Shown piece by piece: positions 11,881 through 18,771 of a DNA stretch of 32,000 nt; position 1 is the stretch's first letter; every line of letters begins with the position of its first letter. Source of the DNA: Candidatus Johnevansia muelleri. Lineage in GTDB: Bacteria; Pseudomonadota; Gammaproteobacteria; Johnevansiales; Johnevansiaceae. The notes beneath the pieces were generated by a model, which worked only from the letters and a program-made list of their open reading frames with translations, searched no databases and was not told the origin of the DNA. The translations under genes were made by a program, and so were the position numbers. The stretch covers positions 90,001 through 122,000 of the forward strand of contig LM655252.1 of assembly GCA_000953435.1 (NCBI GenBank), given 5' to 3'.

Positions 11881-11900
11881 CATATTTTAAGGGGGATGCT

Positions 11901-12554
11901 GTGATACGTTCAATTAAAAAAGGTCCTTTTGTTGACCTTCATCTTTTAAATAAAGTTAATACTGTTATTAAAACTAATGAGCGTAAACCAATTAAAACTT
12001 GGTCACGCAGATCAATTATAATACCTATTATGGTAGGAATTACTATAGCTATACACAATGGTAGACAGCATATTCCAATATATATAACTGAAAACATGGT
12101 TGGGCATAAACTTGGTGAATTTTCTCCTACTCGTACATTTAATAGCCATACAGCGGATAAAAAACCTCAAAGTCAAAAATCAGATGATAAAACCCCTCAA
12201 CCTCCAAAATCAGATGATAAAAAACCTCAACCTCCAAAATCAGATGATAAAAAACCTCAACCTCCAAAATCAGATGATAAAAAACCTCAAACTCCAAAAT
12301 CAGATGATAAAAAACCTCAACCTCCAAAATCAGATGATAAAAAAACTAAACCTCAAAAATCAGATGATAAAAAACATAAAAAATCAGATGATAAAACAAT
12401 TAAACCTCAAAAATCAGATGATAAAAAACATAAAAAATCAGATGATAAAAAAACTCAACCTCCAAAATCAGATGATAAAAAACCTAAAAATCCAAAATCA
12501 GATTATAAAAAAACTAAACCTCAAAAATCATATGATAAAAAAAATAAAAAATAA
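11901..12554 (+). CDS. rpsS: 30S ribosomal protein S19 with a C-terminal tandem-repeat extension of about 130 aa
   Basis: GTG start. Residues 1-88, (M)[15 protein letters not shown]...[37 protein letters not shown], cover full-length S19 (E. coli is 92 aa). The frame then continues through 13 [10 protein letters not shown]-like units to TAA at 12552. Confidence 0.9.
12177..12551 (+). repeat. Head-to-tail tandem repeat inside rpsS: 13 units (30 nt, two of 24 nt, last 27 nt), consensus AAATCAGATGATAAAAAACCTCAACCTCCA
   Basis: Units start at 12177, 12207, 12237, 12267, 12297, 12327, 12357, 12381, 12411, 12435, 12465, 12495 and 12525. Units 2, 3 and 5 are identical and unit 4 differs by 1 nt. The 3' units are more diverged. 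Confidence 0.95.
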
Positions 12555-12576
12555 TATATTAATTAGGAAAATGTAA

Positions 12577-12954
12577 ATGGAAGAATTAGCTTCTGTTAAA
12601 TTATATAACGCTCGTATATCTACTCAAAAGGCTCGTTTGTTAGCAGATAAAGTACGTGGAAAATTAGTATATGATGCATTAAATATTCTTTCTTTTTATA
12701 ATAAAAAAGCAGCAATAATTATTAAAAAAATTCTTAAATATGCTATTTATAATGTAGAAACTAAAAACATAAATATCGATATACTTTATATTTCAACAAT
12801 ATACATTAATAGAAGCGTTTTTATTAAACGTAGCTATGCTCGTGCTAAGGGTCGTACAGATCGATTAATGAAGCCTAGCTGTAATATTATTGTTAAATTA
12901 AGACTAATTAAGGACCAATTATATGGGTCAAAAAGTCAATCCTATTGGAATTAG
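12577..12954 (+). CDS. rplV: 50S ribosomal protein L22 (C-terminus runs 32 nt into rpsC)
   Basis: 125 aa. [17 protein letters not shown]...[22 protein letters not shown] matches L22. About 14 extra residues follow the usual end. Confidence 0.92.
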
Positions 12955-16056: not shown

Positions 16057-16440
16057 ATGAGCATACAGGATCCTATAGCGGATATGTTAACTCGTATTCG
16101 TAATTCGCAAAAAGCGTATAGAGAAATAGTTTTTATTCCTTATTCTAAGATTAAAGGAAAAATAGCTAGTATTTTAAAGGAAGAAGGTTATATTTATAAT
16201 TATATTATTGAAGGTAAAAAATTATATATATATATAAAATATTTTAAAGGTAAACCAGTTATAGAAAATTTAAAAATAATTTCTAAGCAATCTTTGCGGA
16301 TATATAAAAGAAAACATGAAATTATTAAAGTAGCAAATGGTTTAGGTACAGCAATAATTTCAACTTCTAAAGGCATTATGACAGATCGTGCTGCAAGAAA
16401 AATAGGTATAGGTGGTGAAATAATCTGTACTATCTTTTAG
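16057..16440 (+). CDS. rpsH: 30S ribosomal protein S8
   Basis: [20 protein letters not shown]...[30 protein letters not shown] matches S8. Confidence 0.96.
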
Positions 16441-17856: not shown

Positions 17857-17857
17857 A

Positions 17858-17982
17858 GTTATTAAAATAACACAAATTTGAATTACTATTGTAAAAAAAA
17901 ATATAGGTTTTTAATTATTATTATGATTAATCATACTGTTAATTTAAAATATACTAATGCTATTAAATTTTATCATAAGTAG
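17858..17982 (+). pseudogene. rpmD: Degraded 50S ribosomal protein L30 gene (no start codon, premature stop, frameshift and internal deletion)
   Basis: Frame 1 at 17858-17881 reads VIKITQI-stop (E. coli L30 has TIKITQT). A shifted frame at 17923-17982 reads MINHTVNLKYTNAIKFYHK-stop (E. coli has RIGHTVEREDTPAIRGM). It sits in the canonical rpsE-rplO slot. Confidence 0.7.
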
Positions 17983-17991
17983 TAATAATAT

Positions 17992-18423
17992 ATGAAAATG
18001 AATACATTACATCCCTTAAAATATGCTAAAAATATAAAAACACGTGTTGGACGTGGTATAGGTTCTGGATTGGGAAAAACTGCTGGACGGGGTCATAAAG
18101 GTTTTAAATCTCGTTCTGGTGGTAAAATAAACTTGGGATTTGAAGGTGGGCAAATGCCAATACAGCGTCGTATACCAAAATTTGGATTTATTTCTTTTAA
18201 AAACAGAAGATTTGAAGAAGTTAGAATTTCAGATATTATGAAATCTAAATGTAATATTATTAATATAGAAAAACTAAAAAAAATTAATATTATAAAAAAT
18301 AATAAAAAATTAATAAAGATAATTTACTCTAAAAGTATAGAAAAATCTGTTATAACTAGTGGTATAAAATTAACTAAAGGTGCACGTATTGCTATAGAAA
18401 AATTTGGTGGTAAGGTAAAATAA
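17992..18423 (+). CDS. rplO: 50S ribosomal protein L15
   Basis: MKMNTLHP...RVGRGIGSGLGKTAGRGHKGFKSRSGG...FEGGQMPIQRRIPKFGF matches L15. Confidence 0.96.
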   Translation: MKMNTLHPLKYAKNIKTRVGRGIGSGLGKTAGRGHKGFKSRSGGKINLGFEGGQMPIQRRIPKFGFISFKNRRFEEVRISDIMKSKCNIINIEKLKKINIIKNNKKLIKIIYSKSIEKSVITSGIKLTKGARIAIEKFGGKVK

Positions 18424-18545
18424 TGGATAATTAGTTAATAAGTGGATTTATAAATGTATGCACGCGTATGGGATTCTTTTTATATTAATAATGTTATTAC
18501 AATAATAACGCCGTTATTTATAATAATTTTACATATACATTTTTG

Positions 18546-18569
18546 TAACTACAATACTTATTGTAGTTA
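18546..18569 (+). other. Perfect 10-bp inverted repeat (hairpin, 4-nt loop) in the rplO-rpmJ spacer
   Basis: TAACTACAAT-ACTT-ATTGTAGTTA. Flanking TG and TA could extend the stem with a G-U and an A-U pair. No T-tract follows. Confidence 0.6.
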
Positions 18570-18657
18570 TAGTTATAATATATTAAATCCAATAACATTT
18601 AATATCGCATAGATATAAAATGTAATTTTATAAAATTGTATTTTTGGGGAGTATATT

Positions 18658-18771
18658 ATAAAAATTAGAGCTTCTATTAAAAGAATGTGTCGTAAATGTA
18701 AAATAATAAGCAGATATGGTATATTGCGTGTTATATGTACAGACCCCAAGCATAAGCAAAGGCAGGGTTAA
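18658..18771 (+). CDS. rpmJ: 50S ribosomal protein L36, apparent non-canonical ATA start (ATT at 18655 is an alternative); absent from the ORF track
   Basis: Translation (M)[36 protein letters not shown]-stop matches E. coli [46 protein letters not shown] (18646-18651) lies 6 nt upstream. There is no in-frame ATG, GTG or TTG after the stop at 18631. Confidence 0.88.

What the first reader, a model, noticed from the sequence alone, without database searches (positions are those of the whole stretch)
12156..12554. Ribosomal protein S19 carries a recently expanded, in-frame tandem-repeat tail of about 130 aa ([10 protein letters not shown] x13)
Bacterial S19 is about 90 aa (E. coli is 92 aa, ending GHAADKKAKKK). 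Here the conserved core ends at NSHTADKK. The frame then runs through 13 contiguous units (eleven of 30 nt, two of 24 nt, a last one of 27 nt) to TAA at 12552, giving 217 aa. Units 2, 3 and 5 are identical at the nucleotide level and unit 4 differs by one base, while distal units are diverged. This implies recent replication slippage or unequal recombination seeded on the native ADKK tail. Every unit length is a multiple of three, so the frame is never broken in this essential gene. The product would be a Lys/Asp/Pro/Gln-rich tail, presumably disordered, on a 30S head protein that lies near the subunit interface. It recalls the extensions on organellar ribosomal proteins. I do not recognise this as a described feature. 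It could be tolerated junk under relaxed selection or a gained function.
Basis: partly seen in the sequence, partly recalled or inferred. Interest (0 to 1): 0.7.

Follow-up and report, generated by a model that had tools for sequence, protein, structure and literature searches.

The report
Repeat-expanded tail on ribosomal protein S19
In the moss-bug endosymbiont Candidatus Johnevansia (Evansia) muelleri, the essential ribosomal protein S19 carries a 126-residue in-frame tandem-repeat insertion in its flexible Lys-rich C-terminal tail; it is most likely a tolerated by-product of repeat slippage in an AT-rich reduced genome, unusually long but of an ordinary kind.

Summary
rpsS (11901-12554, GTG start) encodes 217 aa. 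An intact S19 core of 88 aa is followed by 13 head-to-tail units: 11 of 30 nt and 2 of 24 nt, at 12165-12542, 378 nt in all. A native-like end, NKK-stop, follows. Deleting the array leaves a canonical 91-aa S19.

The window is the published genome of Ca. Johnevansia (Evansia) muelleri Xc1. The genome paper mentions eight tandem repeats of 100-330 bp but never links one to S19.

Units 2, 3 and 5 are identical. Distal units differ by 1-8 bases, almost all C>A next to A-runs, and form a 54-60-nt higher-order repeat. The array is therefore layered: an older part and a recent burst.

No similar tail was found in 5.8 billion protein clusters. In 151 independent rplB-rpsS loci, S19 extends at most 16 residues past the core; here it extends 129.

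The tail has one hydrophobic residue, 53% charged residues and 17% Pro, so it is almost certainly disordered.

Evidence that selection keeps it open is weak (P about 0.04-0.3), and a stop inside it would not harm the core.

Best reading: a slippage or unequal-recombination insertion that is tolerated because the native uS19 tail is already flexible. Function cannot be excluded. No sister genome exists for comparison.

The parts
11890..11897 (+). Shine-Dalgarno-like AAGGGGGA upstream of the rpsS GTG start
   Evidence: Read directly from the sequence. It lies 3 nt upstream of the GTG at 11901.
11901..12164 (+). rpsS conserved core, 88 codons ([10 protein letters not shown]...NSHTADKK)
   Evidence: Pfam PF00203 covers residues 3-83 at 121.6 bits. 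It aligns with residues 1-89/90 of solved uS19 chains. All 37 invariant columns of a 19-sequence alignment are kept. It lies between rplB and rplV.
12147..12176 (+). Seed copy (unit 0), [10 protein letters not shown]: the native tail that resembles the repeat unit
   Evidence: 22 of 30 positions are identical to the consensus unit, and GATAAAAAACCTCAA is identical throughout.
12165..12542 (+). In-frame tandem array: 13 units (11 of 30 nt, 2 of 24 nt), 378 nt, 126 codons, consensus [10 protein letters not shown]
   Evidence: TRF score 515. Unit table, pattern search, alignment.
12207..12326 (+). Young, homogenised block: units 2-5, three identical and one with a single C>A
12327..12551 (+). Older, diverged block with a 54-60-nt higher-order repeat, [[10 protein letters not shown]][KSDDKK(H/N)K], seen as units 6+7, 8+9 and 12+13
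   Evidence: Alignment A2. Differences from the consensus are listed.
12543..12554 (+). Native-like Lys-rich terminus NKK plus TAA stop
   Evidence: Joined to ...ADKK it gives a 91-aa S19, like the solved chains of 91-92 aa.
12555..12576 (+). 22-nt spacer with AGGA upstream of the rplV ATG at 12577
   Evidence: The L22 product is identical to CDZ16367.1.

Best explanation
The array is a coding minisatellite. A 30-nt segment of the Lys-rich C-terminal tail of uS19, bounded on both sides by the short direct repeat GATAAAAAA, was duplicated by replication slippage. It was then amplified and partly homogenised by slippage or unequal recombination. The result is 126 extra codons inserted between ...ADKK and NKK-stop.

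Because no stop precedes the array, it is translated. This adds about 15 kDa of proline-rich, strongly charged (net +21), intrinsically disordered chain to a 10-kDa protein of the 30S head. I think the tail has no specific function. It is tolerated because the native uS19 C-terminus is already a flexible Lys-rich tail that makes no fixed contacts, and because drift is strong in this vertically inherited, 357-kb endosymbiont. The older units are decaying under the genome's GC-to-AT pressure.

Shown here: the anatomy, the intact core, the layered ages, the uniqueness of the tail and its disorder-type composition. Inferred: the slippage origin, expression of the full-length protein, its incorporation into ribosomes and its neutrality.
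For: - Identity of the window. It is Ca. Johnevansia (Evansia) muelleri Xc1: EF-G is 100% identical to the NCBI record on a 357,498-bp contig, and L22, S3, L16, L14 and L3 match CDZ16367, 68, 69, 72 and 62 exactly.
- Anatomy. The array measures exactly 11 x 30 + 2 x 24 = 378 nt. Removing it leaves a 91-aa S19 ending ADKKNKK, against 91-92 aa in solved structures. The seed copy matches at 22 of 30 positions.
- Layered history. Units 2, 3 and 5 are identical. Distal units carry 1-8 differences and form a higher-order repeat.
- Neutral-looking decay. Of 33 differences from the consensus, 25 are C>A and 2 are G>T, and every C>A extends an adjacent A-run. They convert Pro and Gln codons to Thr, Lys, Asn, His and Gln codons.
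- No clear signal of selection on the reading frame. The +1 frame is equally open. Under the observed C>A spectrum, the chance of hitting no stop is (7/8)^k, which is 0.30 to 0.035 for 9-25 events.
- Disorder. Hydropathy is 0.19, 53% of residues are charged, 17% are Pro and 1 of 129 is hydrophobic. The AlphaFold2 model shows coil, and no Pfam family matches the tail.
- Tolerance is plausible. The Lys-rich C-tails of uS13 and uS19 are invisible in the 2-A E. coli 70S map (PMC7550191). Eleven of 52 M. pneumoniae ribosomal proteins have extensions, mostly disordered, and such extensions are common in bacteria (PMC9534751). S19 proteins with 30-45-aa Ala/Pro/Gly-rich tails exist in metagenomes, for example P0016, P0046 and P0101.
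- Genome context. The genome paper reports eight tandem repeats of 100-330 bp and a complete homologous-recombination set.
Against: - The array has persisted long enough for distal units to diverge by about 10-17%, yet no truncating mutation has fixed. This is despite 13 TCA, 11 CAA and about 45 AAA codons that are each one step from a stop, and 15 A-tracts of 6-8 nt that are prone to indels. That is mildly suggestive of constraint.
- The first 18 nt of the unit (KSDDKK) are far better conserved than the last 12 (5 against 28 differences). GC content explains this only in part.
- A 129-residue chain with net charge +21 that emerges at the subunit interface near the tRNA path might be expected to be costly, which argues against simple neutrality.
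- Nothing here shows that the protein is made at full length.
Confidence: 0.6

Rival explanations
1. The tail is a selected, functional appendage of the symbiont ribosome. It might act as an electrostatic or entropic bristle that binds rRNA, tRNA or mRNA, keeps ribosomes soluble, tethers them, or compensates for components this genome has lost.
For: - The frame has stayed open across about 129 codons although the distal units have diverged.
- The KSDDKK half of the unit is much better conserved than the PQPP half.
- The core is fully intact, so the gene is in use.
- Disrupting ribosomal-protein extensions in M. pneumoniae affects fitness (PMC9534751).
Against: - The substitutions are what mutation pressure alone predicts: C>A next to A-runs, with no synonymous differences to compare.
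- A non-coding frame is equally open.
- The stop-avoidance probability is only 0.04-0.3.
- No homologous tail exists among 5.8 billion protein clusters or in 151 other rplB-rpsS loci.
- Identical adjacent units indicate ongoing copy-number change rather than a fixed structure.
Confidence: 0.15
2. The peptide itself is neutral, but the reading frame is kept open for the sake of the operon. Translating ribosomes must reach the end of rpsS, 22 nt before rplV. This keeps rplV, rpsC, rplP and the genes beyond them translationally coupled and protects the mRNA from polarity. The array would then behave as a translated spacer.
For: - The whole array lies inside the ORF, and the stop sits 22 nt from the rplV start.
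- All genes of this 32-kb cluster are on one strand with very short spacers.
- This would explain an open frame without constraint on the amino-acid sequence.
Against: - rplV has its own AGGA 7 nt upstream of the ATG, so independent initiation is possible.
- Coupling and polarity have not been measured in this organism.
- The statistical case that the frame is under any constraint is weak.
Confidence: 0.1
3. Most mature S19 lacks the long tail. RNA-polymerase or ribosomal slippage at one of the 15 A6-A8 tracts shifts reading into the -1 frame. That frame holds a TGA in every unit, so the products would be of near-normal length. Alternatively, the tail is removed by proteolysis.
For: - One extra A in the first tract gives a 95-aa S19 ending ...[11 protein letters not shown].
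- The -1 frame has 33 stops across the array.
- Slippage at poly(A) tracts is documented in insect endosymbionts. This is from my own knowledge (Tamas et al. 2008 PNAS) and was not retrieved here.
Against: - The tracts are only 6-8 nt long, shorter than those at which slippage is known to be frequent.
- Tracts of A6 or longer are common throughout the window (124 of them), so nothing marks this site out.
- There are no data on the protein.
Confidence: 0.1
4. The copy number, or the open frame, is an assembly or sequencing artefact.
For: - The assembly used 454 reads, which are error-prone in homopolymers, and the array holds 15 A-tracts.
- Tandem repeats are classic sites of assembly collapse or expansion.
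Against: - The longest exact internal repeat is only 66 nt, so any read longer than about 100 nt is anchored by unit-specific variants.
- Coverage was 253x with 454 and 557x with Illumina, and homopolymers were polished with Illumina reads.
- The authors annotated rpsS as CEM_098 and listed no pseudogenes.
Confidence: 0.04

Closest known systems
Terminal sequence extensions of bacterial ribosomal proteins (M. pneumoniae S6, L22, L23, L29 and others; Xue et al. 2022, PMC9534751)
   Same: An otherwise canonical ribosomal protein carries more than 20 extra residues at one terminus. [quoted passage not shown]
   Different: S19 was not mentioned in that paper's main text (0 occurrences); I did not see its list of 11. 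Those extensions are not described there as tandem repeats. This one is a 13-unit minisatellite with identical neighbouring copies, and at 126-129 residues it is longer than the core protein.
S19 proteins with short low-complexity C-terminal tails in proteobacterial metagenomes (P0016, P0019, P0046, P0099, P0101; 119-135 aa) and P0351 (132 aa, ...SSDKPAPEKSADDKPKEESKEKKK)
   Same: The extension begins at the same point, just after ...H(S/T)xDKK. The tails are low in complexity, Pro-rich and hydrophilic.
   Different: Those tails are 30-45 residues long, mostly Ala/Pro/Gly-rich as expected for GC-rich genomes, and not periodic. None shares the [10 protein letters not shown] unit.
[quoted passage not shown]
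   Same: It belongs to the same Halomonadaceae-derived symbiont clade. The Evansia genome paper itself compares its eight tandem repeats with those of Portiera.
   Different: The Portiera repeats are mostly 7-bp microsatellites, concentrated in expanded intergenic regions, and go with the loss of replication and repair genes. This one has a 30-bp unit, lies inside an essential gene in a 94%-coding genome, and sits in a genome with a complete recombination set.
Low-complexity Lys/Asn-rich inserts in housekeeping proteins of AT-rich genomes such as Plasmodium falciparum (from my own knowledge, not retrieved here)
   Same: Slippage in AT-rich DNA produces hydrophilic repeats. These are tolerated as disordered loops or tails in conserved proteins.
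   Different: That is a eukaryotic, genome-wide phenomenon. Here a single bacterial ribosomal protein is affected. Of about 20 ribosomal-protein genes in the window, only rpsS is markedly lengthened; L22 is about 15 residues longer.
Insect Futsch/MAP1B-like repeat protein P0246 (4,903 aa, KPDEKxPSPV decamers)
   Same: It has a 10-residue period and the pattern K-x-D-(D/E)-K-x-P-x-P-x. It matched the tail in 23 stretches.
   Different: It is a eukaryotic cytoskeletal protein. Identity is about 41% within biased composition, and none of KSDDKK, SDDKK, DDKKP, KKPQPP or PQPP occurs in it, only KSDD twice. I read the resemblance as convergent.

Membership tests
uS19 / Ribosomal_S19 (PF00203) | Domain match above the curated cut-off | tested here: met
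   121.6 bits against a cut-off of 27, covering residues 3-83 of the protein and positions 1-81 of the 81-position profile.
uS19 / Ribosomal_S19 (PF00203) | Conserved residues and full-length alignment with solved bacterial uS19 | tested here: met
   All 37 invariant columns of alignment A1 are retained. Residues 1-89/90 align with chains 7unr_s and 11bq_S at E about 1e-39 to 1e-40.
uS19 / Ribosomal_S19 (PF00203) | Position in the S10 operon between rplB and rplV | tested here: met
   Gene order is L2 11047-11880, S19 11901-12554, L22 12577-12954. The L22 product is identical to CDZ16367.1.
Disordered terminal extension of a bacterial ribosomal protein | More than 20 residues beyond the E. coli terminus | tested here: met
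   217 aa against 91-92 aa. In 151 other rplB-rpsS loci S19 extends -1 to 16 residues past the core, median 4; here it extends 129.
Disordered terminal extension of a bacterial ribosomal protein | Predicted intrinsic disorder | tested here: met
   Hydropathy is 0.19 against a boundary of 0.47, 53% of residues are charged, 17% are Pro and 1 of 129 is hydrophobic. The AlphaFold2 model gives all coil at pLDDT 40-59, but the model is poor overall (mean 54).
Disordered terminal extension of a bacterial ribosomal protein | The extension is present in the mature ribosome | not testable with these tools
   This needs proteomics or cryo-EM of Johnevansia ribosomes.
Coding minisatellite from slipped-strand or unequal-recombination expansion | Head-to-tail direct repeats with a unit length divisible by three | tested here: met
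   11 units of 30 nt and 2 of 24 nt, contiguous.
Coding minisatellite from slipped-strand or unequal-recombination expansion | Identical neighbouring copies together with diverged copies or a higher-order structure | tested here: met
   Units 2, 3 and 5 are identical. Units 6+7, 8+9 and 12+13 form a super-unit.
Coding minisatellite from slipped-strand or unequal-recombination expansion | Copy-number polymorphism among strains or individuals | not testable with these tools
   No second Johnevansia genome was found. The next EF-G is 82% identical, from Halotalea. The best L2 relatives are 69-73% identical in the genome and metagenome scans.
Portiera-BT-type microsatellite instability | Short units (7 bp) concentrated in expanded intergenic DNA | tested here: not met
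   The unit is 30 nt and lies wholly inside a CDS. Portiera features are from PMC3673631.
Portiera-BT-type microsatellite instability | Loss of replication, recombination and repair genes | tested here: inconclusive
   The genome paper says the homologous-recombination machinery is complete, but holA, holB and dnaX are missing. The window holds none of these genes.
Poly(A)-tract slippage rescue or recoding | A long A-tract (about 9 nt or more) at which a frame change gives the functional product | tested here: not met
   The tracts in the array are 6-8 nt, and the zero frame already gives an intact core.
Organelle-type ribosomal-protein extension compensating for rRNA loss | Matching reduction of the neighbouring rRNA elements | not tested

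The most novel reading that the evidence does not exclude
The tail is a selected, length-tunable appendage of an organelle-like symbiont ribosome. Slippage in the array changes copy number over generations. Slippage at its 15 A-tracts truncates individual molecules. Together these set a mixture of S19 isoforms that modulates tRNA traffic, subunit joining or ribosome localisation inside the bacteriocyte.
Probability: 0.08. Interest if true: 0.6.

Novelty: new member of a known kind. Interest (0 to 1): 0.3.

Why it matters
If the full-length protein is made and assembled, this is a natural experiment. It would show that the 30S head can carry a disordered chain larger than uS19 itself, emerging at the subunit interface beside the tRNA path. 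That would bear on how much ribosomes of drifting, organelle-like symbionts can tolerate, and on how ribosomal-protein extensions begin. It is also a caution for annotation pipelines and for the length filters used in ribosomal-protein phylogenomics. It does not open a long-standing question, and the sequence has been public since 2014.

Tried and rejected
- Relatives carrying the tail. The full S19 search found no [10 protein letters not shown] tail; its top 14 hits, the ones that outscored ordinary S19s, were S19s with a duplicated core from short contigs, which I take to be assembly chimeras. The tail-only search found nothing. In the representative-library search, the only tail-like hit was an insect Futsch/MAP1B-like protein, and the long S19 entries were mostly frameshifted S19-L22 read-throughs from GC-rich contigs.\n- Other strains or species. 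Exact look-ups of S19, L2, EF-Tu and EF-G in the contig collection all returned 'not on record'. The genome and metagenome scans with L2 gave at best 69-73% identity to free-living Gammaproteobacteria. So neither polymorphism nor conservation could be tested. I could not retrieve the Portiera or Carsonella S19 sequences.\n- An early guess of a betaproteobacterial or Azoamicus-like symbiont was dropped once EF-G matched Ca. Johnevansia muelleri at 100%.\n- RNA- or DNA-level function. There are no Rfam families or tRNAs in the window. The array folds weakly, at -34.6 kcal/mol over 441 nt, with only periodic short pairings. Promoter-like sites were no more frequent than in shuffles, and the four terminator-like sites all lie outside the array.\n- The overlapping ORFs 12100-12576 (+) and 12139-12327 (-) are by-products of a repeat unit that lacks stops in those frames.\n- A dN/dS-type test was abandoned. 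There are no synonymous differences among units, and third positions are already A or T.

Full report
**What is there.** The window is an AT-rich stretch (GC 0.24-0.34) with every gene on the + strand. The order is the end of rpoB, rpoC, rpsL, rpsG, fusA, tuf, the S10, spc and alpha ribosomal-protein operons, then ssb, gltX, sdhCDAB and sucAB. rpsS runs from a GTG at 11901, with AAGGGGGA just upstream, to a TAA at 12552-12554 and encodes 217 aa.

Tandem Repeats Finder reports one outstanding array, at 12156-12542, with period 30, 13.3 copies and score 515. The best unrelated array in the window scores 91. The consensus unit AAATCAGATGATAAAAAACCTCAACCTCCA, allowing up to 3 mismatches, occurs eight times. 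All eight are inside the array, and none appeared in 100 shuffles.

**The gene is a real S19.** Pfam Ribosomal_S19 covers residues 3-83 at 121.6 bits against a cut-off of 27. Nothing in Pfam matches the tail. The first 89-90 residues align end to end with solved uS19 chains of 91-92 aa. All 37 invariant columns of a 19-sequence alignment are kept.

**Anatomy of the array.**
- In the KSDD phase there are 13 units from 12177: ten of 30 nt, two of 24 nt and a last one of 27 nt. A seed copy, [10 protein letters not shown] (12147-12176), precedes them and matches the consensus at 22 of 30 positions.
- In the phase that starts at 12165, the array is exactly 11 x 30 + 2 x 24 = 378 nt. GATAAAAAA lies immediately before the array and closes 12 of the 13 units, including the last; unit 1 ends GATAAAACC. 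NKK-stop follows.
- Removing the array gives a 91-aa S19 ending ...HTADKKNKK, which is the canonical length.
- Units 2, 3 and 5 are identical, and unit 4 differs by one base.
- Units 6+7, 8+9 and 12+13 are copies of a 54-60-nt super-unit. The array was therefore built in at least two phases.
- Of 33 differences from the consensus, 25 are C>A, 2 are G>T and only 1 is C>T. Every C>A extends a neighbouring A-run. None of the differences is synonymous.

**Where it comes from.** EF-G is 100% identical to the protein of Candidatus Johnevansia (formerly Evansia) muelleri, on a 357,498-bp contig. L22, S3, L16, L14 and L3 are exact matches to CDZ16367, 68, 69, 72 and 62. The host is the moss bug Xenophyes cascus.

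The genome paper (PMC4122945) describes 253x 454 and 557x Illumina coverage with homopolymer polishing. [quoted passage not shown] It also reports a complete homologous-recombination set. It lists rpsS as CEM_098 in an orthologue table but says nothing about its length. This array is presumably one of the eight repeats; that is my inference.

**How unusual it is.**
- No protein among 5.8 billion clusters shares the tail.
- In 151 rplB-rpsS loci fetched through L2, and so unbiased with respect to S19, the protein extends -1 to 16 residues past core position 88, with a median of 4. Here it extends 129.
- Genuine S19 tails do exist, but they are 30-45 residues long and not periodic.
- The longer S19 entries are frameshifted fusions.
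- The single strong match to the tail is an insect Futsch/MAP1B-like protein with KPDEKxPSPV decamers. I read that as convergent composition.

**Is it an artefact?** Probably not. The longest exact internal repeat is 66 nt, so reads longer than about 100 nt are anchored by unit-specific variants, and coverage was deep.

**What the product would be.** The tail is 129 residues: K45, D24, P22, S14 and Q11. It has one hydrophobic residue, 53% charged residues and a net charge of +21. Normalised hydropathy is 0.19 against a disorder boundary of 0.47. The tail adds 14.9 kDa to a 10.1-kDa core. The AlphaFold2 model shows the tail as coil at pLDDT 40-59, although the model is poor overall.

In E. coli the Lys-rich C-tails of uS13 and uS19 leave the 30S head near the tRNAs and are invisible at 2 A resolution (PMC7550191). 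The insertion therefore sits in a segment that is already flexible.

**Selection or drift?**
- The +1 frame is as open as the coding frame, while the -1 frame has 33 stops.
- Under the observed C>A spectrum, one C position in eight gives a stop. The chance of seeing no stop is therefore 0.30 for 9 events and 0.035 for 25 events.
- There is only one clearly independent non-unit indel, the 6-nt deletion shared by units 7 and 9.
- Because the array lies after the whole core, a stop or frameshift within it would not inactivate S19.
- Two things hint mildly at constraint. The tail has stayed open despite many codons that are one step from a stop. The KSDDKK half of the unit is better conserved than the PQPP half (5 against 28 differences).
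- An alternative source of constraint is translational coupling to rplV, 22 nt downstream.

**Verdict.** This is a coding minisatellite inserted in the native tail of uS19. It arose by slippage between GATAAAAAA repeats and was amplified by slippage or unequal recombination. It is translated into a disordered tail that is most likely tolerated rather than useful (confidence about 0.6). Functional, operon-level, slippage-truncated and artefact readings remain possible in decreasing order.

It belongs with the known disordered extensions of bacterial ribosomal proteins (PMC9534751). It differs from the intergenic 7-bp repeats of Portiera (PMC3673631). No sister genome is available, so conservation and polymorphism remain untested.

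Noticed in passing
window 12165-12551: Differences among repeat units are almost all C>A on the coding strand (25 of 33), and each extends an adjacent A-run. Only one C>T is seen. This looks like a context-dependent mutation process, or oxidative G>T on the template strand, rather than the usual transition bias.
   Followed up: partly
window 12100-12576 (+) and 12139-12327 (-): Two overlapping ORFs of 158 aa and 62 aa run through the array. They exist only because the repeat unit lacks stops in those frames. The +1-frame ORF ends exactly at the rplV ATG.
   Followed up: yes
window 12577-12954: L22 is 125 aa, with about 15 extra C-terminal residues. Its 3' end overlaps the rpsC start by 32 nt (12923-12954). 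The product is identical to the annotated CDZ16367.1.
   Followed up: partly
window 17857-17991 and 18424-18684: There is no rpmD (L30) between rpsE and rplO, and no secY between rplO and rpmJ. An rpmJ-like ORF lies at 18685-18771 ([28 protein letters not shown]) and probably has an upstream non-ATG start. The genome paper lists ftsY, ffh and secE as the Sec-pathway proteins retained.
   Followed up: partly
proteins P0001-P0014: The top-scoring S19 hits are 143-168-aa proteins with the S19 core duplicated in tandem. Almost all come from short ENA contigs of 0.5-3 kb, so they are probably assembly chimeras.
   Followed up: no
protein P0246: A 4,903-aa insect Futsch/MAP1B-like protein made of KPDEKxPSPV decamers matched the S19 tail in 23 stretches (E 1e-47). 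The period and the K-x-D-(D/E)-K-x-P-x-P pattern are the same. I judged this convergent low complexity.
   Followed up: partly
protein collection: The 217-aa S19 is absent from the protein collection, although its neighbours CDZ16362-16372 are present and rpsS is annotated as CEM_098. EF-Tu as read from the first ATG is also absent, which may reflect a different annotated start.
   Followed up: partly
window 16170-16254 and 18256-18346: Small AT-rich tandem duplications (periods of 25-36 nt, about 2.4 copies) lie inside rpsH and the 3' part of rplO. They do not lengthen the proteins: S8 is 127 aa and L15 is 143 aa.
   Followed up: no
proteins P0016, P0019, P0046, P0099, P0101, P0351: There is a sizeable set of metagenomic S19 proteins with 30-45-residue low-complexity C-terminal tails. 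Most are Ala/Pro/Gly-rich, and one is Lys/Asp/Ser/Pro-rich. The S19 C-terminus seems to be a recurrent site of extension.
   Followed up: partly
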